NCBI GenBank assembly: GCA_044229975.1
Contig: JBGARZ010000023.1
Location: 32,001 to 96,000, forward strand
Origin: Polyangiales bacterium
Lineage (GTDB): Bacteria; Myxococcota_A; Polyangia; Polyangiales; Ga0077539
DNA length: 64,000 nucleotides
Direction: 5' to 3'
The first letter of the stretch is position 1, and each line of letters begins with the position of its first letter. The notes under the pieces were generated by a model that made no database searches, was not told where the DNA came from, and saw nothing but the letters and a program-made list of their open reading frames with translations. Positions 2,445-18,201 of this stretch are shown piece by piece. The position numbers were made by a program, and so were the translations under genes.

Positions 2445-3908
2445 ATGACAGGCCACTTTGCAGCGCGGGTCGGAATGCTTCTCGCGGGCATGTTGCTGAC
2501 CCCCGCGCCAGTGAGCGCGAACGGTCGCTTCCCGACGGCGGGCTACTTCGTCGCAGGCCCCGGGGTCCGCAATGACGTGTTCGCGCTGCGTACCACCTTC
2601 GGCGTGCTCGCCTCGCGCGACGCCGGGCAGACGTGGACGTGGGTCTGCGAGGCCGCCTACAACCAGATCGGCGCGAGCGACCCCACGCTCTCCATCGGCG
2701 CCGACGGAACCCTGGTTCTCGCCTCGTACCTCGGGCTGATTGCGAGCGACGGCGACTACTGCTCCTGGCCCAGGCTGGCCGGAGTGCCGCAGCGGGATTT
2801 CGCCGACGTGACCAACACCGCCGACGGGCGCTCGCTGGTCGCGCTCGCGGGGCCCGATGGTGAGAACGCGCTCTACCTCTCCAGCGACGCCGGCCACACC
2901 TGGGAGTTGGGGGCTCGCCTCACCGGATACGCGACCGAGACCGTGGACGTCGCGCCCGGCGATCGCCTGCGCGTGTACGTCACCGGCTACGGCAGCGGCG
3001 GGCGACCGGTGCTGCTGCGGAGTGACGACGGTGGTCGTACCGTGCGCGAGGTCACGAGGGATTTCCTGGGAAACCAGAACATCTATATCGCCGGGGTCGA
3101 TGCGACGCGCCCCGACATGATCTACCTCCGCGCCATGAACGGCCTCGCGACCACGCTGCTGCGCAGCGAGGACGGCGGGGCGACGATGCGGGCCGTCGGA
3201 CGGACCGCGCGGGACATGCTGGGCTTCGCGCTCTCCGACGACGGGGAGACCGTCTGGATCGCGAGCGCCGACCGCGCGGAAGGCATCCTGCGGTCGGAGC
3301 GCGGAGGGCCCTGGGTTCGCATGGCGGCGGACGTGGGCGTGAAGTGTCTGCGCTTCCACGCGGGCACGCTGTTCGTGTGTGCGGACGAGGCGCGCGACGG
3401 CTTCGCGCTGGGCTATTCCCACGACGGTGGCGACCACGTCGACCCGCTGCTCTCGTTCCGCTTGGTGGACGGGACGACCACGACGTGCGGCTCGAGCACC
3501 CAGGTCGGCGCCACCTGTCCCGCCCTCTGGTCCTCGGAGACGATCCTGCTGCGGAGCGTTGACGCGAGCGTGCCGAACGCTCCGGTCTTCCACGACGCCA
3601 GCACCGATCATGGGGTCATCACCGACCGCCTTCCGCCGCTCGACACCTACGTCCCGCCGTCGGACGGGGCGACGGTGCGCGACGCGGGTCGTGGACTCGA
3701 CGCGGCGGTCGTGAGCGGGACTGACGCTGCGATGGACGCTCAGCGTCCTCTCGACGCGGCGGTAGGATCGACCGGCCCCGCAGGTGGTTGCGGCTGCTAC
3801 GTCGCCAGTCGCGATGCATCGAGCGATCGGGGTGGGGCGTGCGTCGCGCTGGCCGTGTGGGTCACGTTCGCGGGAACATCAAGGCGCGCGCGGCGTCGGC
3901 GGCGATGA
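2445..3908 (+). CDS. Secreted Asp-box/BNR beta-propeller protein with MYXO-CTERM-like tail (paralog 1)
   Basis: Signal peptide then NGRFP; repeated SxDxGxT(W) Asp-boxes; C-terminal GGCGC + hydrophobic helix + RRRRR. Confidence 0.85.
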   Translation: MTGHFAARVGMLLAGMLLTPAPVSANGRFPTAGYFVAGPGVRNDVFALRTTFGVLASRDAGQTWTWVCEAAYNQIGASDPTLSIGADGTLVLASYLGLIASDGDYCSWPRLAGVPQRDFADVTNTADGRSLVALAGPDGENALYLSSDAGHTWELGARLTGYATETVDVAPGDRLRVYVTGYGSGGRPVLLRSDDGGRTVREVTRDFLGNQNIYIAGVDATRPDMIYLRAMNGLATTLLRSEDGGATMRAVGRTARDMLGFALSDDGETVWIASADRAEGILRSERGGPWVRMAADVGVKCLRFHAGTLFVCADEARDGFALGYSHDGGDHVDPLLSFRLVDGTTTTCGSSTQVGATCPALWSSETILLRSVDASVPNAPVFHDASTDHGVITDRLPPLDTYVPPSDGATVRDAGRGLDAAVVSGTDAAMDAQRPLDAAVGSTGPAGGCGCYVASRDASSDRGGACVALAVWVTFAGTSRRARRRRR

Positions 3909-5377
3909 GTCCCTCGCCAGAACGTCCCCTGGGTGGCCGGAGGCGACAGGCGGTGCGGTTGGGGATGCTGTTGGTGGCGACGGCCCTGAGCTCTGCGGAG
4001 GCGCGGGCGAACGGGCGCTTCCCCGGGGCCAACTACTTCGTGGCGGGGCCGGGTTCGCGCAACGACGTGTTCGCGCTGCGTACGACCTTCGGACTGCTGC
4101 TCTCGCGCGACGGTGGTCGGGCGTGGAGCTGGGTCTGCGAGGGGGCCTACGGGGCCATCGCGGGCGACCCCGCGCTCTCGATCGGAGCGGACGGCACCCT
4201 CGTGCTCGCGTCGTACGTCGGCCTGAGCGGCAGCAGCGGCGGTGACTACTGCACCTGGGCGCCTCTGGGAGGAGTTCCTGTGCGGGACTTCATCGACGTC
4301 TCGCAGACCGCGGACGGCCGGTCGATGGTCGCCCTCGCGGGGCCCGGCGGGGAGAACGCGCTCTACCTCTCGTCCGACGGCGGGCGCACCTGGAACCCCG
4401 GCGCGCGCCTCGTCGGGTACACCACGGAGACCGTGGACGTCGCGCCCAGCGACCCGACGCGGGTCTACGTCACCGGGTACGCGACCACGGGCTCGGGCGG
4501 ACCGGTGCTGCTGCGAAGCGACGACGGCGGTCGCACCGTTCGAGAGGCCACGCGCGACTTCCTCGGCGGCGAGAGCGTCTTCCTGGCCGGGGTGGATCTG
4601 ACGCGCCCCGACGTGATCTACCTGCGCGCCGTGCGCGGCCTCCCGACGACCCTGTTGCGCAGCGACGACGGAGGAATGACCGTACGGCTCGTCGCGCAAA
4701 CCGCGCGGGAGATGCTGGGCTTCGCGCTCTCTGACGATGGTGACACGGTGTGGATCGCGAGCGCCGATCCCGCCGGGGGGATACTGCGATCGGAGCGTGG
4801 CGGCCCATGGACGCGCACCGCAGCGGACCTTGGCGTGAAGTGTCTGCGCTTCCACGCGGGCACCCTGTTCGTGTGCGCGGACGAGGCGCGCGACGGCTTC
4901 GCGCTGGGCTATTCCCGCGACGGCGGCGACCACGTCGATCCGTTGCTCTCGCTGCGTCTGGCGGAGGGCGCGTCCGGGGCTTGCGGTCCAGGCACCCAGG
5001 TGGGCGGCGCCTGCGCTTCCCGCTGGGCGACAGAGACGATGCTGCTCCGAGACATCGACGCGAGCGTGCCAACCGCGGCGGTGTTCCACGACGGGAGCAC
5101 CGATCACGGAGTCGCACTCGATCGGGCTTCGCCAATCGACGGGCCGACCGGTCGCCTCGACGCGGGTCAACCAACCGACATGATGGTCCTTCCCCCTGGT
5201 GGCTGCGGGTGTCGCGTAGCGGGGCGGGGCGGAGGGCCAGCACGGGGCGTGACGGTGAGCGCGTGGCTCACCGCGGCGGTGGTGCTCGTCGGGCGTTTGA
5301 GGCGACGAGCGCCGGCGAGGAGTGCCCATCTCCCGGCAGCCCGACTTGCTCCCGCGCAAACGGCGAGGCTCGGTTGA
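3905..5377 (+). CDS. Secreted Asp-box/BNR beta-propeller protein with MYXO-CTERM-like tail (paralog 2)
   Basis: ATGA overlap with the upstream stop; long identical stretches with paralog 1 (e.g. GVKCLRFHAGTLFVCADEARDGFALGYS); GGCGC-TM-RRR tail. Confidence 0.85.
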   Translation: MSPSPERPLGGRRRQAVRLGMLLVATALSSAEARANGRFPGANYFVAGPGSRNDVFALRTTFGLLLSRDGGRAWSWVCEGAYGAIAGDPALSIGADGTLVLASYVGLSGSSGGDYCTWAPLGGVPVRDFIDVSQTADGRSMVALAGPGGENALYLSSDGGRTWNPGARLVGYTTETVDVAPSDPTRVYVTGYATTGSGGPVLLRSDDGGRTVREATRDFLGGESVFLAGVDLTRPDVIYLRAVRGLPTTLLRSDDGGMTVRLVAQTAREMLGFALSDDGDTVWIASADPAGGILRSERGGPWTRTAADLGVKCLRFHAGTLFVCADEARDGFALGYSRDGGDHVDPLLSLRLAEGASGACGPGTQVGGACASRWATETMLLRDIDASVPTAAVFHDGSTDHGVALDRASPIDGPTGRLDAGQPTDMMVLPPGGCGCRVAGRGGGPARGVTVSAWLTAAVVLVGRLRRRAPARSAHLPAARLAPAQTARLG

Positions 5378-5443: not shown

Positions 5444-5749
5444 ATGGATATCCGAACTGTCGCTTTTGCCGTCGCTTCGTTGGCTTTGGGTTTGGCTGCC
5501 GGAGACATCAGGGCTGAAACACCGATCACCATGCAGGAGGACGTGCTCCAGACACCTCCCGCGACCCCCTTGCAGCACTGCTGGCAAGAGTGCCATCCCG
5601 AGTGCCATCCGGTTTGCGTCCCCGAGTGCCATCCGGTCTGCCACCCCATCTGTGATGCCGATGGGCACTGCCACCAGGACTGTCACCAGGAGTGCCACCA
5701 GGACTGTCACCAGGAGTGCCACCAGGAGTGCCACCAGGTTTGCCGCTGA
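5444..5749 (+). CDS. Secreted Cys/His periodic-repeat peptide (C-H-x-x repeats, 14 Cys)
   Basis: GGAGG RBS; signal peptide; CWQECHPECHPVCVPECHPVCHPIC-DADGH-CHQDCHQECHQDCHQECHQECHQVCR. Confidence 0.8.
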   Translation: MDIRTVAFAVASLALGLAAGDIRAETPITMQEDVLQTPPATPLQHCWQECHPECHPVCVPECHPVCHPICDADGHCHQDCHQECHQDCHQECHQECHQVCR

Positions 5750-5947
5750 CGAAGAGGCGGACCTCCTCGTCGGAAGCCCGCATGTAGAGAGCGAGTGCGC
5801 GCGTTGGCGAGGTTTCTTCCGGGGGGTGTCGCCATCGAAATCCGTCGAGGTGCGACGGAGGCAACGTATCGGGGATCGTCCAAGCTGCGAAGGCCCGATC
5901 GCCGCGAGGCGTGCCGCACCTGCAACCGTTGGGTGTACCTTCCCGGC

Positions 5948-7258
5948 GTGCTTCGACGAGCTCTCCTCGCAACCGCGCTGAGCTTCCTTCCAGCCACGGC
6001 CTACGGCAACGGACGCTTCCCCCAGGCGCAGGAGTTTCACCAAGCCCCGGGCTCGAACAGCGAGCTCATGGTCGTGCGCGCCACCTTCGGACTCATCGTC
6101 AGCGTCGACCGGGGCCAGCGGTGGGAATACTGGTGCGAGGACGCTCTGCAGTACTCCGACGGCTACGATCCGCCGCTGACGTACACCGCCAACGGCACGC
6201 TGCTCGTCGCCCTCGACAACGGCCTCTTGAGCACCCGCGATGGGTGTTCAGTTCGCCGCCAACCCGACCTCGAGTCCCTCAGCGTCAAGGACATCGCCTC
6301 GTCGCCCGACGGCCGCGTGACATGGGCGATCGCGGTGACCCGCAGCATACGACCCGACTCGCGCGTCGCACGTTCGACCGACCAGGGCCTCACCTTCGAG
6401 TTCGTCGGCGACCGCTTCGAGGGGGTGATGCTGGAAACCATCGAGGTCGCGGGCTCCGATCCGCTGCGGCTCTACGCCACCGGCACGCTGACCTCCGACG
6501 GCACCGCGGTGCTCTTCCGCACCGTGGACGGCGGCGTGCGCTGGGTGCGCGCCAGCGCGGGCTTCGGCGAGGCTAGCGGGGTGTACGTCTCCGGCGTCGA
6601 TGGGCATCGCCCGGAGGTCGTCTACCTGCGCGCGACCGCGGCCGGGCGGGACATGGACGCCGGCCCCGCGGGCAGCGCTGATGTGCTCTTCCGCAGCGAC
6701 GATGGGGGTGAGACGCTGCGCGAGGTGCTTCGTACCCGCGGCCCGATGCGGGGGTTCGGACTCTCCGACGACGGTCGACGGGTGTGGGCTGGCGGGCCCG
6801 AAGACGGCGTGTGGCGCTCCATCGACGGGGCAGCGCCCACGCGCTTTTCGGACGAGCCTGTCGACTGCCTCCGGTGGAGTTCGGGTGCCCTGTGGGCCTG
6901 CCGCGTCTTCACCCTCGGCGGCCCCTTGTTGCTGCGGAGCGACGGCGACAGCGCCTTCGTCACAGCGCTTTCGGCGCCTGAGGTTGGCGGTCCTCCGGTC
7001 CGTTGCCCGACCGGAACCGTCGCGAGCGGGGTGTGTCCGTCGCGGTGGAGCGTGGTGCGGCGATCTCTCGTTCAGCCGGCGGCGATCGATGCCTCGACCG
7101 ACCAGGGCGCGGCGGTCACGCAGCCGTCCTCGGCGGGCCATGGATGCCACGCCGGACCTGGGGCGCAGGGGGCTTGGAGCGCCTTCGTCGGGTTCGCCGT
7201 TGCGGCGATCGGACGGCGGCGGCGCACTCGCACCCTCCGCTCCCGCCCTGACGGCTGA
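5948..7258 (+). CDS. Secreted Asp-box/BNR beta-propeller protein (divergent paralog 3)
   Basis: Signal peptide then NGRFP; ATFGLIVSVDRGQRW, RSTDQG, RTVDGG, RSDDGG boxes; GC-TM-RRRR tail; start uncertain (5933 or 5948). Confidence 0.8.
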   Translation: MLRRALLATALSFLPATAYGNGRFPQAQEFHQAPGSNSELMVVRATFGLIVSVDRGQRWEYWCEDALQYSDGYDPPLTYTANGTLLVALDNGLLSTRDGCSVRRQPDLESLSVKDIASSPDGRVTWAIAVTRSIRPDSRVARSTDQGLTFEFVGDRFEGVMLETIEVAGSDPLRLYATGTLTSDGTAVLFRTVDGGVRWVRASAGFGEASGVYVSGVDGHRPEVVYLRATAAGRDMDAGPAGSADVLFRSDDGGETLREVLRTRGPMRGFGLSDDGRRVWAGGPEDGVWRSIDGAAPTRFSDEPVDCLRWSSGALWACRVFTLGGPLLLRSDGDSAFVTALSAPEVGGPPVRCPTGTVASGVCPSRWSVVRRSLVQPAAIDASTDQGAAVTQPSSAGHGCHAGPGAQGAWSAFVGFAVAAIGRRRRTRTLRSRPDG

Positions 7259-7348
7259 CGAGCCGTGGGAACTTCCGAGCTCTCCGAAAGAACTACTGCC
7301 TCCCACTGAGCCGTCCCTCCAGGTTGCGGCCAACGCTCTGCGCCTGCT

Positions 7349-7657
7349 GGCGTTCAGCGATACCCGACGTACGACGCAGTTGCCCGTTGGCTTGTGACGT
7401 CAATCCCTCTAGAAGGCGTTACTTCTTGCCATCATAAAGGCAAGATATCCTCCGTCTGGATCCCTCCTAATCCGGGGCCGAGGGGCGCGAAGCGGAACCG
7501 ACGGCCTGTAGAGCACCTCTACAGAATGCCTCAGGCCGACAAATTAGCTAACGATTATAGCAAGTTATCGGCATGGCTCCACCGGGGTCTGCCGGAATCT
7601 GGCCGCTCGTGCTTCCACCGGGGTCTGCCGGAATTTGGCCGATCGCTCGGCCGGGCC
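7349..7657. repeat. Origin-like element copy 1 (palindromes, AT-rich stretch, two iterons); inverted homolog of 12127-12464
   Basis: Aligns by eye to the reverse complement of 12127-12464; iterons ccaccggggtctgccggaat(c/t)tggccg at 7579 and 7615; palindrome CTGTAGAG-cac-CTCTACAG at 7506-7524. Confidence 0.8.
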
Positions 7658-7665
7658 ACCGTCTG

Positions 7666-9181
7666 CTACCGCCCACTCAGTCGGGCGACAGCTTCTTCGA
7701 GCGCGCGTCCCATCTCCGCCTCGGGGTCCGCTTCGGCCCGGATCACGCTCCGCGTCCCGACCCCAAGAGTTTGGGTCACCTGGACCTGAGTCCAGCCCTT
7801 GGACCTGCGCCATGCGCGCAGCTCGCTGCCCGTCGGGATCGAGGGCACTGGGGCGGCTCGACGGGCGGGAGGTGGTGGATCAGGCGGTCGCGGACCCACT
7901 GGGGGGGTAGAGGTGACAGCGGCCCCCGAGCGTCCGTTCGCCGCCCGCTTGACACCATCGCACCTCGCCCAGACCTTCGACGCGTTGGAGTTCGGCCAAG
8001 TCGCGCTCGAGGGACGTCCAGGCGCGACCCGGCTTGTTGGAGTCGAACTTGATGCCCGCGGTCTCGAGGAGTCCCTGGCCGGTGAGCGTGACGCACTCCC
8101 GGCCCTTCGCGAGGTCCCAGCGCCAGTGGATCGGGAGGATCAGTCCCAGGGCGAGGGCGCAGGGGTGGCGCACATGGTCGATGCGCGCGAGGTCGGCCGG
8201 GGCGGGTGCCCAGAGTGATCCCAGGGTGCCGTCGCGGTCCCGGACACCCTCGTAGAGCGCGGGGTGGATGGCCAGCACGAGCCCCTCCAGCGCCCACTCG
8301 GAGTCGTAGATCGCCTCGGCCCGCTGCGTGATGCTGAGCACGGGGCCGCGCATCCGCAGCTCCCCGCTGCGGTGGTAGATGGCCAGTTCGAGCCGCGTCA
8401 GCGCTTCGACCTCGTCGGCGACGACCTTACGCACGGAGTCGTCGCGGCGCGCGCGGTCGGAGTACCCGAGCGCGTCCATGTGCGCCTCGATTTTCCACCG
8501 CACGAACCCCGTTCGCCCCTCCGTGGTGAGCAGCCGGTGCCAGGCCGCCCAGTGCCGGAGCCCCTGCCACCCGCACCACGCCCTCACGGCGTGGATGATC
8601 CGCTCGGGGAGTTCTCGGACGTCCAGCTGCAAGCGCACCTGCCGGGTGGGGGCGAGGATCTCGGCCCACCCGTCCATGACCGGCGTCTTGTGCGGTTGCC
8701 TGTCTTTCGGGCGGTCGCGCCAGCCGTTGAGCAGCGCGTGGTGCGCGGGACCCGCGTCGAGTGCCATGAACGGCCGCTCGCGGTCGCGCTGGGCCGCGCG
8801 GACCGCGTGAGCCGAGAGCGCCGACAACGCCAGGACCCTCGCCAGCTCCCAGACCCTGGACAGGAAGTCCTGCTCGCCCGCGACCCCTTGCTCGGCGGCC
8901 ATGACCAGCGAGGCTGCACCCCACGTCCAGTCGAAGGCCGCCCCGCCGCGGATTCCGGGAAGGGTCGCCGGTCTGTCCGGTGTACCGGTTCCCCGATCGA
9001 CTGGGCGGTTCGCGCCGTTGGCTTGGAGCGCGAGGACGGTGCTGAACACCTCGCCGCGCGCTTCCAGATCGCTGCGAAGGTCGGCGAGGCCTTCCGGGCC
9101 GCTCGCCGTGGCCAGGAGCCGGTCGATCACCAGGCCGAGGTCCTTGTCCGACACCAGGGCTCGAAGCGCGTTCCGCAGCAC
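7666..9181 (-). pseudogene. Frameshifted paralog of the putative Rep-HTH protein at 12751-14397
   Basis: Strong similarity to 12751-14397 (ELPERI.HA..AW..WQGLRHWAA; IHPALYEGVR; ALALGLILPI.WRWD); frameshift at the G-run near 7900 and again near 7850; HTH in a separate frame; 5' end abuts an ATPase fragment. Confidence 0.8.
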
Positions 9182-9192
9182 CTGGGCGTCGG

Positions 9193-9737
9193 CTCGGCGT
9201 CACGGACACGCCGCGCGAGCACGCGAAGGAGGTGCTGAGGGAGCTGCTGGCGATGAGGGTCCAGAAGACGCTCATGCTGAGCGGAGACCACCAGGGGTCG
9301 CCGACGCGGTGGCCCGGCAGGTCGGCCTGACCGACGCGAAGGGCGACCTGCTCCCCGAGGACAAGGGCCGCGTCATCGACGAGCTCGCGAAGGCCGGCGT
9401 CGGCGTCGCCATGGTAGGCGACGGGTTCAACGACGCCCCAGCGCTCGCCTGATCGACCGTCGGGATCGCCATGCGGGCAAGCGGTTCGGACGTGGCGCTG
9501 AAGACAGCAGACATCGTGCCCATGGGTGACGACCTGCGGGCTTTGCCCTTCGCCGTGGGCCTCAGCCGCGCCTGCCGGCGGGTCATCCAACAGAACCTCT
9601 GGGCGAGTCTCGGCATGGTCGCGTTCCTCATCCCAGCAACTGTGTTCGGGATCGCCGGCATCGGCGTCGCGGTCGTGCTGCACGAAGGTTCGACACTCCT
9701 TGTCGTGACCAACGCCCTGCGCCTGCTGGCATTCATT
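9193..9737 (+). pseudogene. C-terminal fragment of a heavy-metal P1B-type ATPase
   Basis: DTPR..MLSGD (frameshift) [19 protein letters not shown] then SDVALKTAD..QNL..VVLHEGSTLLVVTNALRLL. Confidence 0.85.
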
Positions 9738-9744
9738 GCCCCCA

Positions 9745-9819
9745 TTTCACAGCGAAACCATAGTTGCTTCTCCGCCTTTCCTTCTGGACGTCATTCCTTC
9801 ATGCCGTCACGAAGGCAAG
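9745..9819. repeat. ~75-bp diverged direct repeat of 12470-12544
   Basis: tttc.cagcgaaacc.tag...ccgcctttcc....gacgtcattccttc.tg.cgtcacgaaggcaag in both copies. Confidence 0.8.
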
Positions 9820-9844
9820 ATGGTCGCGTCGTACCGTGCGTCCA

Positions 9845-9923
9845 CGCCGCGTGCTTCCACTGCGACCCTCTGCTGGAGGGGTGTGACCCCGATCCGGCGT
9901 GACATCAGTCGTCGAGCTGTTGA
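9845..9923. repeat. ~80-bp direct repeat of 11827-11910
   Basis: cgccgcgtgcttccactgcgaccctctgctgg...ggggtgt.gaccccgatccggcgtg.catcag.tcgtcgagctgttga in both copies. Confidence 0.9.
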
Positions 9924-9924
9924 G

Positions 9925-11448
9925 TTAGGGGGGTCGAGTCGGCGACTGTGACCCTGACGGCCCATGCTTCCGCGGCGGGGACCGACGGCGAGCCGGGACG
10001 ATCAGTCCCAGGACTGCCAGCACGAGCGACGCGCCACCCCCACCGGGCGCGGCGTGCGCCCCCGCGCGGCAGTTGCACCCGTCGCGCGGCGCTGGTGCGC
10101 CAACGGCGTCGAGCACGGTGTCGGGGGCATCGAGCACCCGGCCCGCGTCGCGGGCGTCGGCCCCGCCGAGATCCTCAGACACGTCGGGCGCGGCGCCGAG
10201 GTCCGCGGGCAGCGTCCCGGCGTCGAGCGGCGCCTGCATCCCGCTCGCGTCGAAGACGGCGGCATCGTGGAAGACCGGCGCGCGCGGCGCGCTCGCGTCG
10301 ATGCTCCGAAGCGGCGCCGAGACCGCCGACCAGAAGTCGGCGCACGTCGCCCCGACGCTGGCGTCGCCGCACATCGGAGAGGTGCCGGTGAGCCGACGTA
10401 GCGAGAGCAGCGGGTCGATGTGCTCGCCGCCGTCGTGGGAGTAGCCCAGCGCGAATCCGTCAATCACCTCGTCGGCGCACACGAAGAGCAGCCCGGCGTG
10501 ATAGCGCAGGCACTTCACACCAACGTCGCCACCGACACGCGTCCACGGGCCACCGCGCACCGATCGGCGGATGCCCTCGGCGCGAGCGGAGCTCGCGGTC
10601 CAAACGGTCTCGCCGTCGTCGGAGAGCGCAAAGCCCACCATCTCCTCCGACGTCTCCCCGATGGGGCGTAGGGTCAACCCGCCGTCATCGCTGCGCAGCA
10701 ACACCGTCCCGAGACCACGGGTACCTCGCACGTACACCACGTCGGGCCGGCGCGGATCGACGGCAGCGAGGAATACCCCATGGGCGCCGGCAAAGTCCCG
10801 CGCGACCTCGCGCACCGAGCGCCCGCCGTCGTCACTGCGCAGAAGAACCGGGATGCCGCCGCGAACATAGGCCGTCACGTAGACTCGCCGCGGGTCGTTG
10901 GGCGCCACGTCCGCGGTCTCGCTGAAGTACCCCATCAGCCGCGCGCCAGCTTCCCAACTCCGCCCGCCGTCGGACGAGAGCACCAACACGTCGTCGCCGG
11001 TGGGCCCGGCCAACGCAACCATGGCGCGCCCGTCGGCGGTGTGGGTAATGTCGGCAAAGCCCCGCGTGGGCGCGCCCGCCGGACGCGTCCAGCGACAGTA
11101 CGCCCCGTTGCTGGATGCGAGCCCGGTGAAGGTTGCGATCACCACGGTGCCGTCGGCGCCGATGGAGAGCGACGGATCGGCAGCGCCAGGGGCATTGAAG
11201 CCCTCCTCACAAACCCAATCCCACTGCCGCCCGCCGTCTCGCGAGAGCAGCAGACCGAAGGTCGTGCGCAGCGCTAGGACGTCGTTGGTCGCGCCCGGGC
11301 CCGCGACGAAGTATCCCGCTGCGGGGAAGCGCCCGTTGGCCTGCGCCTCGCCCGCGAAACCGAGAGCCAGCGCCAGACCCAGTGCCCCCACCCTACCCCG
11401 CACCGCTCCCCCGCACATCCAATGCCCACCCGCCGTTGGTGCTGTCAT
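9925..11448 (-). CDS. Secreted Asp-box/BNR beta-propeller protein with MYXO-CTERM-like tail (paralog 4)
   Basis: GGGAG RBS before ATG 11448; AQA-NGRFPAAGYFVAGPG; closely similar to paralogs 1 and 2; DGCNC-TM-RRR tail. Confidence 0.85.
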   Translation of the reverse strand: MTAPTAGGHWMCGGAVRGRVGALGLALALGFAGEAQANGRFPAAGYFVAGPGATNDVLALRTTFGLLLSRDGGRQWDWVCEEGFNAPGAADPSLSIGADGTVVIATFTGLASSNGAYCRWTRPAGAPTRGFADITHTADGRAMVALAGPTGDDVLVLSSDGGRSWEAGARLMGYFSETADVAPNDPRRVYVTAYVRGGIPVLLRSDDGGRSVREVARDFAGAHGVFLAAVDPRRPDVVYVRGTRGLGTVLLRSDDGGLTLRPIGETSEEMVGFALSDDGETVWTASSARAEGIRRSVRGGPWTRVGGDVGVKCLRYHAGLLFVCADEVIDGFALGYSHDGGEHIDPLLSLRRLTGTSPMCGDASVGATCADFWSAVSAPLRSIDASAPRAPVFHDAAVFDASGMQAPLDAGTLPADLGAAPDVSEDLGGADARDAGRVLDAPDTVLDAVGAPAPRDGCNCRAGAHAAPGGGGASLVLAVLGLIVPARRRSPPRKHGPSGSQSPTRPP

Positions 11449-11514
11449 CCCTACTCCCGCGATCCTGACACGGAATGCCCGGCTTCCGCCCCGGACAAGG
11501 GCTCGATGACTTCC

Positions 11515-11531
11515 TACTATCCGTCGTAGTA
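11515..11531. promoter_or_regulatory. Palindromic operator-like site TACTA-N7-TAGTA
   Basis: TACTATCCGTCGTAGTA in an AT-rich intergenic patch upstream of paralog 4. Confidence 0.45.
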
Positions 11532-11589
11532 TTTTCGCGACTCGCGCGGACGTTCCGCGCCAGGAGACGGACGGAACGTGACCAAACTG

Positions 11590-11824
11590 CAGTCTGACCT
11601 GCGGCGCGCTCACGCTCGTCGGCTGGGTGGCCGGGAAGCTGGGCGCCCCTCCCTCACCTGCAACGTGCCCTTCTGGCTCGCGTACGCGGCGGGCGGGTGG
11701 TTCGCGCTGCGTAAAGCGGTGCTCGTCATCCGCGCGAAGAAGTTCGAGATCGACTTCCTCATGCTGGTGGCCGCCGCGGGCGGGGGCGCTCGGGGAGTGG
11801 TTCGAGGGGGCGCTGCTGCTCTTC
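11590..11824 (+). pseudogene. N-terminal transmembrane fragment of a heavy-metal P1B-type ATPase
   Basis: LAYAAGGWFALRKAV..FEIDFLMLVAAAG / GALGEWFEGALLLF, split by a frameshift and then truncated. Confidence 0.75.
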
Positions 11825-11826
11825 CC

Positions 11827-12125
11827 CGCCGCGTGCTTCCACTGCGACCCTCTGCTGGTGGAGGGGTGTTGACCCCGATCCGGCGTGGCATCAGGTCGTC
11901 GAGCTGTTGAACTCCCCGTGATCCTGCGCGAGGTGACCAGTGGGTCCGCGACCGCAGCACGGCGCAGCCACGCCCGACGACACCACCGACCCGTAGCGGA
12001 TCGGCGAAACCTCTCCAGACAGCGACTCAGCAAGGGCGCCCGTACATGTGCGCGGCGGGCCTCGGACGCAGCTGCTCGGGGGCGACCTCGCGGCGCTCAC
12101 GCCATGGGTGCCGCCAAAGCACAGA
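11827..12125 (+). pseudogene. Highly decayed third copy of the rep-like gene
   Basis: QWVRDR at 11938 matches PQWVRDRL of both rep paralogs; DPLLVEG resembles HPALYEG; lies next to iterons in the same geometry as the other copies. Confidence 0.45.
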
Positions 12126-12126
12126 G

Positions 12127-12464
12127 GCCCGGCCACACGATCGGCCAAATTCCGGCAGACCCCGGTGGAGGATTCGGCCAGCTTCCGGCAGATCCTGGTG
12201 CCAGATCGGCCAAATTCCGGCAGACCCCGGTGGGGACATGTCGATAACTTGCTAGAATCGTTACCTAATTTTCTAAACCAAGGCCTTCTGTACAGGTACT
12301 CTACAGAGCCGTCGGTTCCGCTTCGCTCCTCTCGGCCCCGGATTAGGAGGGATACGGCCGAAGGATGTCTTGCCTTCATGACGGCAAGAGGCAACGCCTT
12401 CCAGATGGAGTGACGTCACGAGATAGCGGGCAGTGGCGTGGTACACCGGGTATCGTTGAACGCC
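12127..12464. repeat. Origin-like element copy 2 (three iterons, AT-rich stretch, palindromes)
   Basis: cggcca(aa/gc)ttccggcaga(c/t)cc(c/t)ggtg at 12142, 12175 and 12207; AT-rich 12242-12280; inverted homolog of 7349-7657. Confidence 0.8.
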
Positions 12465-12600
12465 CCTCGTTTCGCAGCGAAACCGTAGGCGTCCACCCGC
12501 CTTTCCATGTAGACGTCATTCCTTCCTGACGTCACGAAGGCAAGCCTTCGTTCCGTCACCTTATGTGCCGGACCGTCCTCCAGACGGGCCGAGCACCAGA

Positions 12601-12830
12601 AGGTTCTCCTCAGAGGAGAACCTCAGAGAGGACGTCAGAAAGTTGATTTCTCCTGTACTTCCAATGACTTGCAACAGGGCCTTCCGCAGGATCTGCCGGA
12701 TTCCTGCCGGTTCACCCGCAGGATCTGCCGGATTCCTGCCGGTTCATCCGCTAGGTCTGCCGGATTCCTGCCGGTCCACCCCTCCTGGCCAGTTCATCCG
12801 CAGGGTCTGCCGGATTTCTGCCGGTCACCT
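12601..12830. other. Putative replication origin of the intact replicon: perfect palindrome, AT-richer stretch, four iterons
   Basis: AGGTTCTCCTC-A-GAGGAGAACCT at 12601-12623; ccgcaggatctgccggattcctgccgg-like units at 12684, 12716, 12748 and 12798 (32-bp period for the first three). Confidence 0.7.
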
Positions 12831-14397
12831 GCCGGTCGAGACCCGCCCGGATGGCTCGCCCGAGCGGCTCGTCAGGCGCCGCCTCGGCTCCCCGAATGGT
12901 CCTCTCCCCCACGCCCAGCATCTTCGCCGCTTGCGCCTGCGTCCAACCTTGCTGCAAACGCCAGGCGTGTAGTTCGCCACCTGTTAGCAACAAGGGCGTC
13001 GCGAGCTGCTCGGCCGGCTCGATTCCATGAACCAATCGGTCACGGACCCACTGCGGCGGGTAGAGGTGGCAACGCCCGGTACGGGACCGCGCCTCGTTCG
13101 GGTTCCACCGGGCGAGCCCGAGTCCCCCCACGCGCTGCAGCTCCGCGAGGTTGCGGTCGAGCGCCGTCCAGGCCCTCCCGGGGTCGTGCGAAGACACGGG
13201 GATCCCAGCCGTGTCGAGGAGGCGCTCTCCCGTGAGGGTCAGATGATCCAACCCGTCGGCGGTGTCCCATCTCCACCGGATCGGCAGGATCAGTCCGAGG
13301 GCGAGCGCGTACGGGAAGCGGGCGTGGTCGATCGTCGCCAGCTCGGTAGGAGCCGGGGCCCAGAGCCTCCCGATGGAGCCGTCGGCGCGGCGGACCCCCT
13401 CGTACAACGCCGGGTGGATGACGAGCTCGAGCCCCTGGAGCGCCCACTCGGACCCGCGCAGGGCCTCGCCGCGCTGGGTCACGGCGAGAACTGGGCCGCG
13501 CAGGCGGAGGGTGCCGTCTGAGTTGTAGACGGCGACCTCCATGCGCGTGAGGGCTTCGACCTCGGCGGCGACGGTCGCCCGCAGCTCGGGCGTTCGCCGC
13601 GAGCGGTCGGCGTAGCCGAGGGCGTCGAGGTGGTCTTCGAGCGACCAGCGGATGCGCCCCGTACGTCCGGCCTCGGTGAACAGGCACTGCAGCGCGGCCC
13701 AATGCCGGAGCCCCTGCCACGACCGCCACGCTTTGATGGCATGAACGATCCGCTCGGGCAGCTCCTGGACGTCGAGCCGTAGCCCGAGCTGTTTGCTGGG
13801 GTGGAGGATCTCGGCCCACCCTTCGCGCTGGGTCGTCGTGTAGGGACGCCGACGATTCTTCGGCAGGTCGCGCCACCGGTCGATCAGCGAGTGGTGAACG
13901 TTGCCGGCGTCCAGCGCTATGAAAGGCCGCGCTCGGTCGCGTTCGATCTCGCGCCACGCGAGGTAGGCGCGGGCCGCGAGTGCGACAGAGATGGGCGGTT
14001 CATCGTCCGCGTCGTCGCGGCCGCCCGAGGCGAAGAGGCCGCGGATGCGGTCGCAGCAGGCAGCCGCTGCGGCGGGGTCCGGCGCCCGGTCGCCGAGCCA
14101 GGCGACGACATCGGCGGGGGCGGCGGCCAGCGGCCAGAGCGGCAGGGCAGAGCCGCCCTCCACGCTGACCTCGATGGCCATCCAGACGGTCGGGTCGGCG
14201 CCGAGTTCGGCGCCCGCCGCCGTCAGCGCGGCGAGGTGCGGCTCGGTGTCGGAGAGGCCGGAGGCGCGCACCCGATCGACCACCGCCGCGCGCACGGCAT
14301 CAGCGACCAGCGTTCGGAGCGCGCCGTCGAGCGCGTCGAGGTCGGCTCGCACGAGCAGAGCACGGGCGTCGGAGCGGCGCACGACGAGAGGGGTCAT
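12751..14397 (-). CDS. Putative plasmid replication initiator with C-terminal XRE-type HTH
   Basis: Intact ORF downstream of parA and its partner; ends within the iterons; C-terminal TGGELHAWRLQQGWTQAQAAKMLGVGERTIRGAE HTH; Rep function inferred from context. Confidence 0.65.
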   Translation of the reverse strand: MTPLVVRRSDARALLVRADLDALDGALRTLVADAVRAAVVDRVRASGLSDTEPHLAALTAAGAELGADPTVWMAIEVSVEGGSALPLWPLAAAPADVVAWLGDRAPDPAAAAACCDRIRGLFASGGRDDADDEPPISVALAARAYLAWREIERDRARPFIALDAGNVHHSLIDRWRDLPKNRRRPYTTTQREGWAEILHPSKQLGLRLDVQELPERIVHAIKAWRSWQGLRHWAALQCLFTEAGRTGRIRWSLEDHLDALGYADRSRRTPELRATVAAEVEALTRMEVAVYNSDGTLRLRGPVLAVTQRGEALRGSEWALQGLELVIHPALYEGVRRADGSIGRLWAPAPTELATIDHARFPYALALGLILPIRWRWDTADGLDHLTLTGERLLDTAGIPVSSHDPGRAWTALDRNLAELQRVGGLGLARWNPNEARSRTGRCHLYPPQWVRDRLVHGIEPAEQLATPLLLTGGELHAWRLQQGWTQAQAAKMLGVGERTIRGAEAAPDEPLGRAIRAGLDRQVTGRNPADPADELARRGGPAGIRQT

Positions 14398-14447
14398 GGC
14401 GTTTCGAGAAGAGAGCCGTGCAGAGACATCGGAATGCGCTGTCTCAG

Positions 14448-14843
14448 TCAGGCCCGGAGTCGGGCGCGCAAGAGGGCCTTCAAGTCGGCCTCGGACTTCG
14501 CTTCGCTCAGGTCGAGACCCTCGCTCTCCAGCGCATCGACGAGCGCCCGTAGGATCTCCGCCCGCCGGATGGCGGCGCCGGTCTTGGCCCGGATGTCGTT
14601 TGCCAGGCGGTCGAGGAACACGATCTGTCTGTTGAAGAGGACCACGGTGACCTTGGTCCATTCCTCGTGGGTGGCAGGTCGCCCCAGGGCGGGTGCAGCC
14701 GCCTTCACGGCAGTTGGTTCGACCAGCATCGGTGGGGCCGGCTCAGCTGCCAGCGTCGCTGCCGTTTCGGGCTCGGCGGGCGCCGCCTCTGCTGCGGTGG
14801 CCGAGAAGATGTTCATCTTGCCCAGCCTGCTCGGCTTGTTCAT
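14448..14843 (-). CDS. ParG-like ribbon-helix-helix partition partner
   Basis: Directly after parA; flexible Ala/Pro/Glu N-terminus, then KVTVVL strand and two helices (RAEILRALVD); GAGGA RBS. Confidence 0.65.
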   Translation of the reverse strand: MNKPSRLGKMNIFSATAAEAAPAEPETAATLAAEPAPPMLVEPTAVKAAAPALGRPATHEEWTKVTVVLFNRQIVFLDRLANDIRAKTGAAIRRAEILRALVDALESEGLDLSEAKSEADLKALLRARLRA

Positions 14844-14878
14844 GCGTTCCTCACTTCCATTATGACGGCAGTCCGCCC

Positions 14879-15652
14879 TTACTTCTTGCCGTCTTGACGG
14901 CACCTTTGCAAGACCTCAGCAGCGAGCCGGCGATAGGCGTCGGCGCCGCTTGAGTTCGGGTCGTGCCCGAAGATCGTCTCGCCGAAGCTCGGGGCCTCCG
15001 AGAGGCGGACGTTGATCGGAATCTCTGTCTTGAAGACGCGCTCGCCGTAGTGCCCTCGGATGAGGTCGATGACCTCCCCGGTGACCTTCGGCCGACGGTC
15101 CACCTGGGTGAGCACCAGTCCCAACAAGGTGGCCTTTGCACCGGTGCCCCGGCGAAGCAGTTCCGTGGCCTCCATCAGGTTCACGAGTCCCTCGACGGCC
15201 AGGTACTGGGGTGTGACCGGCACCAGGAAGGCGTCCGCGGCCACCAGGGCGTTGATGGGCACCATCGAGAGCGAGGGAGGGCAGTCGAGGAGGATGAAGG
15301 CGTAGTCGCCTCTCACCGGCGCCAGGGCCTCCACCAGACGGCGCTCGCGTCCCTTCACGTCGGCGAGGGCGAGGTCGGCGTTGGCCAGGGCCATCGAGCC
15401 AGTGAGCAGGTCGAGGCCCTCGACGGCCGTCGGACGGATCGCGTCGCGAATCGGCAGCCCGTCGAGCAGGACCTCCGCCGACGAGGGGGCGAGCTTGTCG
15501 CGCGCGACCCCGAGCGAGAAGGACGCCGACCCCTGGCTGTCCAGATCGGCTAGCAGCACGCGCCGCGTCTTCGTGGCGAGCCCCGCCGCGAGGTTGACCG
15601 CCGTGGTCGTCTTGGCGACGCCACCCTTGTTGTTGACCAGCGCGATGATCAT
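14879..15652 (-). CDS. parA: ParA/Soj family partition ATPase
   Basis: KGGVAKTTT deviant Walker A, DLDSQG, ILLDCPP, NALVAAD, IPINVRLSEAP; no N-terminal HTH (type Ib). Confidence 0.95.
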   Translation of the reverse strand: MIIALVNNKGGVAKTTTAVNLAAGLATKTRRVLLADLDSQGSASFSLGVARDKLAPSSAEVLLDGLPIRDAIRPTAVEGLDLLTGSMALANADLALADVKGRERRLVEALAPVRGDYAFILLDCPPSLSMVPINALVAADAFLVPVTPQYLAVEGLVNLMEATELLRRGTGAKATLLGLVLTQVDRRPKVTGEVIDLIRGHYGERVFKTEIPINVRLSEAPSFGETIFGHDPNSSGADAYRRLAAEVLQRCRQDGKK

Positions 15653-15921
15653 GCCATCCGTCCTTCCGCCTAGACGGCTGGGTAGCATGACGCCCTGACT
15701 TCTTTCCATCCCAAAGTGGACCGGCATACTGTGGTCGTCGAAGGGGACCTTCCCCACCTTCGCCATGCCCACAACTACCCCTGCGAGGTCGGCGTAGAGC
15801 TCTGCGCGTGCCAGGCTCCGCCGATTCACATGCAGCTCCATGCGGGTAGACCAGGCGCACAAGCCGTTGCCACAACCGTCCCCTGCGCTTGCGGCGCCGA
15901 CCAGATCACGGGGGTGGTGCG

Positions 15922-18201
15922 ATGAGCCTCCCCGTCCAGGAACGTCGCGGGGTGTCCCCCGTCGCGCGATCGGGGTTCGCGCGGGACACGCGTATCGAAC
16001 CCAATGCCCTCACCGCAATCAAGCAGGAGGCGGCGTTTGGTTGGCTCTGCTGCCAGCTGTTGCCCGGGATGTCGAGCATTCGCGTGCTCCCCGGCGAGGT
16101 GGGCACCGAGAGGGACTGGGTCAGGCCCGCGATCCAATCGAACGTGGACCCTCGGGACGCCGTCGCCGCACACCTCCTCGCGGGCGACAGAAGGAACTCG
16201 GTGTCGTTGCCGGGGTACACGCGAGAGCCCGTGCGGTCGGTCGCGTTTGCGTACTCGAAAAGGGCGCGCACCTCGCGCCTGACAATCCACCTGTCTGGCC
16301 GCGTTCCAGGCTACGAGGTCGGCACGTTCGTCCAGCGCCTCGGCGACCGAGTGGGCCACAGCCGCCTGTTGGTCACCTCGGTCAGCGCCATGGTCGGCGG
16401 TCGCAGGGAGCACCGATGCCACGTCCGCGTGCCGGAGATGGAGGTGTTATGCGCGGTGACCGCGGTCTCTCAACTGCTCGAAGACTGCGGCTTCGCGCAG
16501 CGTAGCGGGGTGGTCGAGGTGTTCCCGGACAGCCGGTTTGCCGGCCTGCCCTTCGGGCTGCTCGAGAACGAGTTGCTGCGCTACGGCGACGGCGGTCTGG
16601 AGTCCGAGCCCGAGTGCGGGTGGCGGCGGCTGGTCGCGGAGTTTCAGGCGTTGGAGACCCTCGACTTCGAGCGTCTTCTTCCGCCCTCCTCCTCCGACCC
16701 AGAAGTCACCACATCTCGCGCCGCCGACCCGCTCGCTCCGGCGACTGTCGCCCCTCGTGCTGCCGACCCACCGATCTCCTCGACGGCGCCGTCCGTGGCT
16801 CCCGGGAGCGTTGATGCCTACTTCGAGCTGGTCTGTCACGGGGTCGCCCTCGTGTCCGTGCAGCCAGAGTCCTGCCCATGGACCCCGGAGGGGGGCTGGA
16901 AGTGGTTGAAGACGCGAATCGACGTGAAGCGTTCGGTTGTCGCGCACCTGCTGGCCTCCCAGACGGGGCAGCCCTCGCGGCTCGGGCGACGCGGCATCCG
17001 CGCGTCCGGGCTCTCGTACCGGCCCGATGCGACGACGTCCCGCATCACGATCGACCTGGACGGCAAGCACGGGTACGAGCCCGCCAAGGTCGTCGCTGCT
17101 CTCGCCGCCATCGTGGGACGCGACCGCCTGATGGTGACCGCGAGCAGCGGCTCCCCCGGGCACTACCATTGTCACGCCCGGGTCCCACCGATGCGCGTGG
17201 ATGAGACGGTCGCGGCGTCGCGCGCGCTGCTCGACAGGGCCGGGTTCAAGTGGAAGCTGGGTGGCGCGGAGACCTACCCGAGCACTGGCAACTGTCGCCT
17301 GCCGTTCGGCCTGGGCGGGTGCGAGCTGTTCGAGGACGAGCAACTCCAGGTCGGCCATCAGGAGACGTGGCAGGAGCTCACGAAGCGGCTCTGTGGGATG
17401 CCGACGCTGGTGTTCCAATCGGGGTCGCCGCCTGGTAGCCGAGCGCGTCGGCACGTCCGCTCGCGCGCCCGGGCCCGTAACGCCGAGACGGCTGCCCGCA
17501 TCGAGAGGTGGCGCGCGAACGGGGTCGAACGCCACGAGCGAAACCAAGCGCTGTTCGACCTCGTGGTGAACGGTCGTTGTCGGGGCCTCGCGGAAGATGA
17601 GGTCCTTCGCGAGCTCCAGGGATGGATCGACGGAGGCGGCCTGGCGCGGAGCGCCGTGGCGCGGAAACCCGGCGGCATCGCCAAGCAGCGTAACCAGGTT
17701 CTCCCGGATGTTGTGGAGCGGGTGTATGGCTACCCTCCCCCCGCGAAGCAGAAGGCCAACCTCACGGAGACAGAGATCGCCTGGGTCGTCGAGATCGCCA
17801 AAGAGCGATGCCCCAAACGGCGCGCGCACGCGGTGGTGCTCCTGCTCGACGTGCTGCCATGGTTCAAGGCCGCGTGGCTCGAGGGCAGGACGGACGTCAC
17901 GCTCGGGCAGAAGGAGTGGGCCCGAACCCTCGGGCGACGGGGGGATGGCTACGCGTTGCTCCGGCGACAACTGCACCTGTTCAGGCAGACGTCCCACTAC
18001 GTGATTGGCGAGCGCTCGACCACCTGGTGCCTGACCGAGCCCGTCCCCTTCGAGTCTCGCCATCCGACCGAGCGTCTGGTTTCGACGAACCCGCGTCCCG
18101 CGACGAAGCGCACTGGTTCGAAGCCCTCCCGCCTCCAAAAGACGGCGTGGGTTCTGGCGGCCGCTGAGCGGGTAGCTCGCGGCGTCGTCCGGGATGGGTG
18201 A
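15922..18201 (+). CDS. Primase-polymerase-like protein with tandem AEP-like domains and a PriCT-like region
   Basis: Second domain has ITIDLD, SSGSPGHYHCH and CRLPFG; first domain is a clear internal duplicate with LTIHLS; later HERNQALFDL resembles PriCT-1. Confidence 0.65.
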   Translation: MSLPVQERRGVSPVARSGFARDTRIEPNALTAIKQEAAFGWLCCQLLPGMSSIRVLPGEVGTERDWVRPAIQSNVDPRDAVAAHLLAGDRRNSVSLPGYTREPVRSVAFAYSKRARTSRLTIHLSGRVPGYEVGTFVQRLGDRVGHSRLLVTSVSAMVGGRREHRCHVRVPEMEVLCAVTAVSQLLEDCGFAQRSGVVEVFPDSRFAGLPFGLLENELLRYGDGGLESEPECGWRRLVAEFQALETLDFERLLPPSSSDPEVTTSRAADPLAPATVAPRAADPPISSTAPSVAPGSVDAYFELVCHGVALVSVQPESCPWTPEGGWKWLKTRIDVKRSVVAHLLASQTGQPSRLGRRGIRASGLSYRPDATTSRITIDLDGKHGYEPAKVVAALAAIVGRDRLMVTASSGSPGHYHCHARVPPMRVDETVAASRALLDRAGFKWKLGGAETYPSTGNCRLPFGLGGCELFEDEQLQVGHQETWQELTKRLCGMPTLVFQSGSPPGSRARRHVRSRARARNAETAARIERWRANGVERHERNQALFDLVVNGRCRGLAEDEVLRELQGWIDGGGLARSAVARKPGGIAKQRNQVLPDVVERVYGYPPPAKQKANLTETEIAWVVEIAKERCPKRRAHAVVLLLDVLPWFKAAWLEGRTDVTLGQKEWARTLGRRGDGYALLRRQLHLFRQTSHYVIGERSTTWCLTEPVPFESRHPTERLVSTNPRPATKRTGSKPSRLQKTAWVLAAAERVARGVVRDG

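What the first reader, a model, noticed from the sequence alone, without database searches (positions are those of the whole stretch)
7349..12830. Three generations of one rep-origin module, with iterons that diverged alongside each rep
Seen: three modules share the order rep 3' end, iterons, AT-rich stretch, palindrome. Module 1 (7349-9181) has a frameshifted rep. Module 2 (11827-12464, inverted) keeps only scraps such as QWVRDR. Module 3 (12601-14397) is intact. All iterons share the core TCTGCCGGA but flanks differ (ccaccgggg..aatttggccg versus ccgcagga..ttcctgccgg), with 32-36 bp spacing apart from one 50-bp gap in module 3. A block atccctcctaatccggggccgag.gg.gcgaagcggaaccgacggc is well conserved between modules 1 and 2. 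Inference: fused related plasmids of different incompatibility groups, with surplus initiators decaying while cis sites persist.
Basis: partly seen in the sequence, partly recalled or inferred. Interest (0 to 1): 0.7.

Follow-up and report, generated by a model that had tools for sequence, protein, structure and literature searches.

The report
Plasmid replicon graveyard in a myxobacterium
One intact and two wrecked copies of a likely plasmid replication origin lie side by side on what is probably a circular heavy-metal-resistance plasmid; they belong to a large unnamed family of predicted initiator proteins whose DNA repeats differ with each protein lineage, a possible source of vectors for myxobacteria.

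Summary
The three modules are real. The intact gene (12751-14397) folds in silico like the iteron initiators RctB, Pi and RepE and adds a C-terminal XRE helix-turn-helix; no Pfam, NCBIfam or PHROGs Rep model and no PLSDB plasmid matches it. 65 of 71 homologous loci carry three or more repeats just 3' of the gene, 54 ending in a 31-33 bp triad, mostly before an AT-rich stretch; iteron sequence follows Rep clade. The 152-kb contig probably closes into a circle through one IS copy and carries heavy-metal genes. Modules 1 and 2 are the same type (clade A); module 3 is clade B, sitting behind a par operon that relatives pair with clade A. Module 1's rep has several deletions and its iteron array collapsed; module 2's 'scraps' are mostly the end of an IS21 element. 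Selective survival of cis sites is not shown. Best reading: recombination between sister plasmids, with one replicon surviving. Dead extra replicons are ordinary; the unnamed initiator family is the interesting part. Replication itself is untested.

The parts
7312..7369 (+). Tail relic of a heavy-metal P-type ATPase gene (first of four such tails)
   Evidence: 42 of 58 nt match the 3' end of the intact paralog C29:142183-144756; that paralog is a heavy-metal ATPase (TIGR01525)
7349..7505 (.). Block X1: spacer between ATPase tail and clade-A origin, with a 22-bp palindrome copy at 7426-7443
   Evidence: inverted copy of 12308-12464, 84%; motif scan
7506..7524 (.). Origin-distal palindrome of module 1 (8-bp arms)
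   Evidence: same element in clade-A relatives
7520..7581 (.). AT-rich stretch, likely unwinding element of module 1
7579..7644 (-). Two clade-A iterons, 36 bp apart; the phased triad is lost
7666..9197 (-). rep1, clade-A initiator pseudogene (5' end lost, ~220-nt and 9-nt deletions, two single-base deletions)
   Evidence: 88-89% DNA identity to intact L012-L014, L050, L051, L060
9193..9743 (+). 3' part of a decayed heavy-metal ATPase gene, with a nonsense codon at 9450
9739..9820 (+). Block Y1: spacer that in relatives leads from the ATPase to the clade-B origin; palindrome copy at 9801-9818
   Evidence: 80% to 12464-12544; contigs of runs X1 and X3 join 9820 to 12515
9841..9923 (+). Block Z, second copy of the module-2 relic
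   Evidence: 92% to 11823-11910
11587..11825 (+). 5' part of the decayed ATPase gene
11826..11955 (+). Probable eroded relic of a clade-A rep (ends in QWVRDR)
   Evidence: weak apart from the 19-nt match
11947..12119 (+). 3' end of istB and right end of an IS21-family element, abutting the module-2 origin
12139..12233 (+). Three clade-A iterons (33, 32 bp): orphan origin of module 2
12231..12307 (.). AT-rich stretch and palindrome (12288-12306, one mismatch) of module 2
12308..12464 (-). Block X2 with the best 22-bp palindrome copy (12370-12387); ends in an ATPase tail
   Evidence: contig 17 of run X5 joins it to the ATPase 3' end
12464..12544 (+). Block Y2, joined tail-to-tail to X2
12601..12678 (.). 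Palindrome (12601-12623, 11-bp arms) and AT-rich stretch (12631-12678) of module 3
   Evidence: (z -4.6)
12683..12826 (-). Four clade-B iterons (32, 32, 50 bp), the distal two inside the 3' end of rep3
12751..14397 (-). rep3, intact clade-B predicted initiator: N-terminal helical part, tandem winged helices, C-terminal XRE HTH
14448..14843 (-). Small protein, by eye a ribbon-helix-helix partition adaptor
   Evidence: no Pfam or NCBIfam hit; conserved upstream of clade-A reps
14879..15652 (-). ParA-family ATPase; a 22-bp palindrome copy overlaps its 3' end (14886-14903)
   Evidence: PF13614 E 8e-49
15922..18201 (+). 759-aa protein with two repeated domains and a weak PriCT-1 match, possibly a primase helper

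Best explanation
The region holds one intact and two ruined copies of a likely iteron-type plasmid replicon, probably left by recombination between sister plasmids on what is likely a ~155-kb circular heavy-metal plasmid. Mechanism of the module (inferred by analogy with RepE/Pi/RctB): Rep monomers would bind the ~23-bp bipartite iterons (clade-specific half-site, A-tract, conserved CCGGCAGACC) with their two winged helices; the origin-proximal triad at 32 bp (three helical turns) would line the proteins up on one face and melt the adjacent AT-rich stretch; irregularly spaced distal copies would serve copy control; ParA with the small adaptor would partition the plasmid, perhaps through the 22-bp palindromes. 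History (inferred): clade-A and clade-B plasmids share the layout ATPase > spacer > origin < rep; recombination in these shared parts brought a clade-B rep-origin behind a clade-A par operon and left two clade-A origins. Shown: rep1 was broken by deletions and its array collapsed; an IS21 end abuts origin 2 and almost all of its rep is gone. Short cis elements most likely outlast a 1.7-kb gene simply because they are smaller targets.
For: Fold: AlphaFold model pLDDT 89.7; best solved matches RctB domains 2-3 (Z 12.3, rmsd 4.4, 236 aligned) and Pi-iteron complex (Z 10.2), the only 2 of 48,161 chains with Z >= 8; Foldseek top rows RctB, Pi, RepE; ESM Atlas third set has Rep3_N on 13% of members. 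Origin anatomy: 65 of 71 distinct loci have >= 3 repeats within 520 nt 3' of the gene, against 2 of 71 inside the gene, 16 of 63 upstream and 12 of 63 further downstream; 54 of 71 end in two 31-33 bp spacings and 59 of 71 have a 40-nt window of GC <= 0.45 after the array; a locus fetched later from another family (L126) shows the same 33/31 triad. Co-divergence: each starred Rep clade has its own half-site; distance correlation rho 0.42, 1 of 5000 permutations, 20 representatives. Replication neighbours: DnaB directly upstream in clade C, ParA in clade A. Plasmid: both ends of C29 enter the same 3.65-kb IS with matching 6-bp target copies (GCTACG), as the 3 of 3 complete copies have, while the two other loose ends do not match; cargo is CzcA/CusA pumps, P-type ATPases, copper oxidases, defence genes, no core gene among 38 of 89 ORFs scanned; a relative's contig with a clade-B rep, ATPase and BNR gene is terminally redundant, 98% over about 6.8 kb. 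Mosaic: contigs of X1/X3 show BNR - whole ATPase - Y - ori3 - rep3 - adaptor - parA; a contig of X5 shows parA - adaptor - clade-A rep, another X2 joined to the ATPase; the window's par operon is 77-88% identical to that of 7 clade-A loci and absent from 9 of 9 clade-B loci with enough flank or not. One 53-kb contig carries intact A, B and C reps (L013, L001, L011).
Against: No experiment; no sequence-level match to any Rep model or to PDB sequences outside the HTH; no match in 72,556 plasmids. Circularity rests on one 6-bp match at an IS whose targets are biased (xCTAxx/xGTAxx), and GC skew does not single out ori3. No public contig spans the window's own junctions, so the exact order is unverified. 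No clear DnaA box. The distance correlation is not phylogenetically independent and the tree is the quick one. Some clade-B loci (L031, L035) have too little upstream flank to test for the par operon.
Confidence: 0.75

Rival explanations
1. The same replicons, but on an element integrated in the chromosome between two IS copies; the reps decay because initiation from an integrated origin is harmful, and rep3 works only after excision.
For: C29 ends in an IS that also ends contigs C1 and C24, so a path C24-IS-C29-IS-C1 exists; a serine recombinase is on C29.
Against: Target-site copies match between C29's own two ends and not with C1 or C24; rep3, its origin and parA are intact; a relative's contig is terminally redundant.
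Confidence: 0.1
2. The patchwork is an assembly chimera of several related plasmids from a mixed population, and some lesions are sequencing errors.
For: The genome is a 39-contig bin (93% complete, 3% contamination); no laid contig spans the odd junctions; one frameshift lies in a G7 run.
Against: Duplicated blocks are 80-92% identical, not near 100%; lesions include a ~220-nt deletion between ATCCG microhomologies, array collapse and a nonsense codon; neighbouring long ORFs with G6/C6 runs are intact. The G7 frameshift alone could still be an error.
Confidence: 0.08
3. One reading: three successive generations of different incompatibility groups, with cis sites kept by selection.
For: Module 2 kept a full triad while losing nearly all its rep; iterons of modules 1 and 2 are 30/30 identical while flanks are 81-84%.
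Against: Only two iteron types; rep1 and rep3 are sister clades each with intact members today (59% identity), not ancestor and descendant; module 1's array collapsed; module 2's palindrome has a mismatch.
Confidence: 0.05
4. The protein is a DNA-binding regulator or end-binding protein of a mobile element, and the repeats are operators or element ends rather than an origin.
For: The only library hit is an XRE HTH; sources name homologs 'helix-turn-helix transcriptional regulator'.
Against: Two-winged-helix core matches initiators best; repeats are 3' of the gene, in helical phase and beside an AT-rich stretch; DnaB or ParA are the usual neighbours; no transposase domain.
Confidence: 0.04

Closest known systems
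Iteron plasmid initiators RepE (F), Pi (R6K), RepA (pPS10); Pfam Rep_3 group
   Same: Predicted tandem winged-helix core; direct repeats in helical phase beside an AT-rich stretch, as described in PMC10797057 (passages).
   Different: No sequence match to Rep models; 548 aa against about 250-300; extra N-terminal helical part and C-terminal XRE HTH; repeat period 32 bp; origin 3' of rep and partly inside it; 9-12% identity in structural alignments.
RctB of Vibrio chromosome 2
   Same: Best structural match (Z 12.3); like RctB, an initiator core with extra peripheral domains (PMC5397143, passages).
   Different: Different extra domains, ~23-bp sites rather than 12-mers, no sequence match, and accessory cargo rather than core genes on the replicon.
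pMF1 replicon of Myxococcus fulvus (pMF1.14)
   Same: Myxobacterial plasmid with a par operon of ParA plus small proteins.
   Different: pMF1.14 is unrelated (hhalign probability 0.5%) and described as lacking DNA-binding motifs (PMC11610982, passages).
Multireplicon plasmids with truncated or spare rep modules
   Same: Several replicons on one molecule, some dead; general knowledge (recalled), with examples seen only as search listings (PMC7315799, PMC10194956).
   Different: Here the live and dead replicons are paralogous clades of one unnamed family, so iteron change can be read on a tree.

Membership tests
Iteron-type theta replicon (RepE/Pi/RepA class) | [quoted passage not shown] | tested here: met
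   predicted model matches RctB 2-3 and Pi over model residues 157-461; prediction, not a solved structure
Iteron-type theta replicon (RepE/Pi/RepA class) | Direct repeats in helical phase at the origin | tested here: met
   32/32 triad in module 3; 54 of 71 homologous loci
Iteron-type theta replicon (RepE/Pi/RepA class) | AT-rich unwinding element next to the repeats | tested here: met
   3 of 5 AT-rich regions of the window; 59 of 71 loci
Iteron-type theta replicon (RepE/Pi/RepA class) | DnaA boxes in the origin | tested here: inconclusive
   three one-mismatch hits in 7300-14500, one beside ori2, none beside ori3; consensus recalled from E. coli
Iteron-type theta replicon (RepE/Pi/RepA class) | Rep binds iterons and the cassette replicates autonomously | not testable with these tools
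   needs EMSA and a minireplicon assay
Iteron-type theta replicon (RepE/Pi/RepA class) | Lies on an extrachromosomal circle | tested here: inconclusive
   matching 6-bp target copies close C29 through one IS; no reads
Pfam Rep_3 / Rep3_N sequence family | HMM match | tested here: not met
   0 of 56 family members scanned (P0001, P0002; 54 of the 150 listed representatives)
RctB | Sequence similarity to RctB and its 12-mer/39-mer sites | tested here: not met
   profile finds only HTH chains in PDB sequences; iterons are ~23 bp
pMF1.14 initiator | Sequence similarity | tested here: not met
IS21 family (for 11947-12119) | IstB helper ATPase C-terminus followed by the element's terminal repeat | tested here: met
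   full copy in L025 has IstA NF033546 and IstB NF038214 above cut-off; window relic 78% identical and ends in the same terminal motif
Type Ib partition system (ParA + ribbon-helix-helix adaptor + centromere) | ParA ATPase | tested here: met
   PF13614 E 8e-49
Type Ib partition system (ParA + ribbon-helix-helix adaptor + centromere) | RHH adaptor and its binding site | tested here: inconclusive
   no library hit for 14448-14843; the 22-bp palindrome travels with this operon but binding is untested

The most novel reading that the evidence does not exclude
This is an undescribed, widespread family of three-DNA-binding-domain plasmid initiators (tandem winged helix plus XRE) with a modular iteron code, in which swapping a 6-8 bp half-site creates new compatible replicons; and the orphan clade-A origin at 12139-12307 is kept on purpose as a decoy that titrates or handcuffs clade-A Rep and so shuts out incoming sister plasmids.
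Probability: 0.15. Interest if true: 0.75.

Novelty: new variant of a known kind. Interest (0 to 1): 0.5.

Why it matters
Reviews read here name pMF1 as the only basis for a self-replicating myxobacterial vector, with a narrow host range (PMC11610982, passages), and only two or three myxobacterial plasmids as known (PMC11705834, passages). A replicon family found strongly in 14 of 30 genomes of the host's family, with at least four iteron types and 211 clusters at E <= 1e-30 among 50%-identity representatives, would mean plasmids are common in these uncultured lineages but invisible to Rep-based typing, and offers compact, probably compatible rep-origin cassettes to test as vectors. It is also a natural series for studying how initiator and iteron specificity diverge. 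The decayed copies themselves are an ordinary outcome of plasmid fusion.

Tried and rejected
Pfam, NCBIfam, PHROGs and PDB-sequence searches name only the HTH. tblastn of rep3 in PLSDB and INPHARED, and the profile in IMG/VR, found nothing. Rfam: 0 matches in 7000-16000. dN/dS as a sign of decay: rep1 has 35 N / 61 S private changes against 15 / 62 in two relatives (p 0.018), but intact rep3 shows a like excess (31/99 against 10/73, p 0.034), so it does not discriminate. GC skew of C29 and C30 does not point at the origins. Whole-scrap alignment to rep genes was marginal (z 0.7-2.7). The conserved block beside the clade-A palindrome has no special single-strand fold (z -1.1 to -1.9). The five public runs hold only 5-7% of the words and are relatives, not the source, so the frameshifts could not be checked on reads; uncovered stretches there prove nothing. 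The 759-aa neighbour gave an unusable single-sequence model (pLDDT 36), no PDB-sequence match and no PLSDB match; its Atlas search did not complete. Literature searches for Polyangiales + plasmid + replication initiator and Myxococcota + plasmids + metagenome-assembled + replicon + Rep protein returned 0 papers; one search returned 6 unrelated listings; these cover only the open library. The original pMF1 papers (Zhao 2008, Feng 2012) were not read, nor the supplement of the pSa001 preprint, which may describe its replicon; pSa001 was not compared directly. Three look-ups of earlier findings were empty.
Full report
Observation. Modules 1 and 2 are inverted copies, 81% identical over 308 nt, and their iterons are identical over 30 nt. 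Module 3's iteron differs in its outer half. The window is G000:C29:32001-96000. The genome holds one more homolog, on C30, with five repeats of a third type behind a DnaB gene.

The protein. rep3 (P0001, 548 aa) matches only an XRE HTH at residues 476-511 in Pfam; 0 of 54 distant representatives scanned hit a Rep model (54 of the 150 listed). A model from a 98-row alignment (pLDDT 89.7) matches RctB domains 2-3 (Z 12.3) and Pi bound to iteron DNA (Z 10.2), the only 2 of 48,161 chains at Z >= 8; Foldseek gives RctB, Pi and RepE first. PMC5397143 (passages) shows these share one initiator core. So 'rep' is supported by predicted fold, not by sequence. The family is large: 119 proteins, 211 clusters at E <= 1e-30; strong hits (E <= 1e-70) in 14 of 30 genomes of the host's family (17 of 30 with weak ones) and few elsewhere (11 of 301 genomes of the phylum, 6 of them HTH-region only). 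Titles of related records read Polyangiales, Myxococcaceae, Myxococcota or Deltaproteobacteria; the host itself is unnamed, so 'myxobacterium' is an inference.

The origin is a family trait. Among 71 distinct loci whose gene reaches the C-terminus with at least 400 nt of flank (others and exact duplicates dropped; many of the 71 are close kin), 65 have three or more repeats just 3' of the gene, against 2 of 71 inside the gene, 16 of 63 upstream and 12 of 63 further downstream. 54 of 71 end in two spacings of 31-33 bp. Then come an AT-rich stretch and, in most, a palindrome 85-100 nt from the last repeat. L126, fetched afterwards, fits; L128 and L098 (weak or partial homologs) show no array. 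The iteron is bipartite: clade-specific half-site, A-tract, conserved CCGGCAGACC. On a quick IQ-TREE tree of 59 rows each starred clade has its own half-site: A (CGGCCA; module 1, L012-L014, L050, L051, L060, with L004), B (CCGGCAG; module 3, L001, L031, L034), C (TGTGGCA, TGTTGCA, GTGACA, CCCGCCA subclades, all behind DnaB where tested) and D (CCGGACA). After dropping 11 long-branch or unanchored rows and dereplicating 48 to 20, Rep and iteron distances correlate (rho 0.42, 1 of 5000 permutations); kin are not independent, and two clade-D anchors were off by 1-2 nt. This layout is that of iteron plasmids as reviewed in PMC10797057 (passages).

The replicon. Both ends of C29 run into a 3.65-kb IS. 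Its three complete copies have 6-bp target duplications; C29's two ends carry the same 6-mer, the two other loose ends do not match. C29 is therefore probably a circle of about 155.6 kb, in the same cell as the large contigs that carry identical IS copies. Of 38 ORFs scanned (of 89), the named ones are metal pumps, P-type ATPases, copper oxidases, defence genes, a recombinase, a kinase, an NAD synthase-like and an agmatine deiminase-like protein. A relative's 111-kb contig with a clade-B rep, ATPase and BNR gene is terminally redundant. GC skew was uninformative.

What happened here. Against intact L012 and L013, rep1 lacks its start, about 220 nt between ATCCG microhomologies, 9 nt and two single bases, and its array fell to two copies. 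Module 2's gap is mostly an IS21 right end that stops 19 nt before the first iteron; a full copy of this element splits another family member in L025. What precedes it resembles clade-A rep specifically (0 of 300 shuffles for three clade-A genes; not for B, C, D or istB), though mainly through the QWVRDR 19-mer. Four ATPase tails and duplicated spacers X, Y and Z lie between the modules. Contigs from other samples show the unbroken units: BNR - whole ATPase - Y - ori3 - rep3 - adaptor - parA in X1 and X3; parA - adaptor - clade-A rep, and origin A - X - ATPase, in X5 at depth 2. The window's par operon matches that of clade-A loci at 77-88% and is not found beside the clade-B loci tested; the 22-bp palindrome has 4 of its 5 genome hits (<= 3 mismatches) here and, in fetched loci, occurs only with clade A. 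The simplest history is recombination between sister plasmids through shared ATPase and par DNA, a clade-B cassette taking over a clade-A backbone, and loss of the spare clade-A genes. Multi-rep contigs are common in the family: 3 of 3 carry different types, one with intact A, B and C. Against strict incompatibility, that MAG also has two B and two C reps on different contigs.

What is not shown. No reads from the source sample were available, so the junctions and the G7 frameshift are unchecked. dN/dS did not separate dead from live rep. Nothing shows that orphan origins are selected: ori1 is damaged, ori2 has a palindrome mismatch, and both are about as far from intact relatives as expected. 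Binding, replication and incompatibility are untested.

Comparison and novelty. It works like an iteron replicon of the RepE/Pi/RctB class but fails sequence membership of Rep_3, RctB and pMF1.14 and has no match in PLSDB. Searches found no description; the library lacks most subscription papers. Papers seen as passages: PMC11705834, bioRxiv 10.1101/2020.10.06.323741, PMC4700575, PMC11610982, PMC10797057, PMC5397143; all others as listings only. Verdict: a new variant of a known kind; the graveyard is ordinary, the family is worth naming and testing. Interest 0.5.

Noticed in passing
G000:C30 (L104-L111), rep homolog at C30:134298-135968: A 150-kb contig with a clade-C rep, DnaB, ParA and an integrase, on which 20 of 71 scanned ORFs are radical SAM enzymes, with carbamoyltransferases, 2OG-Fe oxygenases, cupins and a halogenase-like gene; both ends lie in one repetitive gene family. 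Possibly a biosynthetic megaplasmid.
   Followed up: partly
window 15922-18201: 759-aa protein with an internally duplicated domain (second copy with DxD, SGxxxHxH and RLP motifs, recalled as primase-like) and weak PriCT-1 matches in 3 of 7 homologs; only 7 homologs found. May be a replication helper or a second initiator.
   Followed up: partly
window 7426, 9801, 12370, 12526, 14886: 22-bp palindrome family beside each origin and over the parA stop; nearly confined to this spot in the genome and to clade-A par loci. Candidate centromere or operator.
   Followed up: partly
L025:6870-11030: IS21-family element with an extra ParB-like first gene splits a clade-D rep, with an 8-bp target duplication read from the sequence; a copy lies on G000:C17.
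   Followed up: partly
window 5444-5749: Small secreted-looking protein made of Cys/His/Glu repeats (CHPE, CHQE units) between BNR-repeat genes on a metal-resistance plasmid; possible metal-binding peptide.
   Followed up: no
window 2445-3908, 3788-5377, 5795-7258, 9925-11449: Four paralogous BNR/sortilin-like secreted proteins around the origins, with more copies elsewhere on C29.
   Followed up: no
L114:12096-19341 (C29:108096-115341): Defence cluster: AAA ATPase plus S8 peptidase (IteA/IteS-like, below cut-off) and a CBASS-like cyclase.
   Followed up: no
L114:6517-7341 and L116:9529-10623: MNIO/bufferin-like maturase and MbnP-family copper-binding protein among the metal genes.
   Followed up: no
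G000:C11:434886-438542 and copies: 3.65-kb IS with 6-bp target duplications biased to xCTAxx/xGTAxx; family not determined.
   Followed up: partly
L059: A long-branch family member whose iterons lie in the opposite orientation, triad nearest the gene.
   Followed up: no
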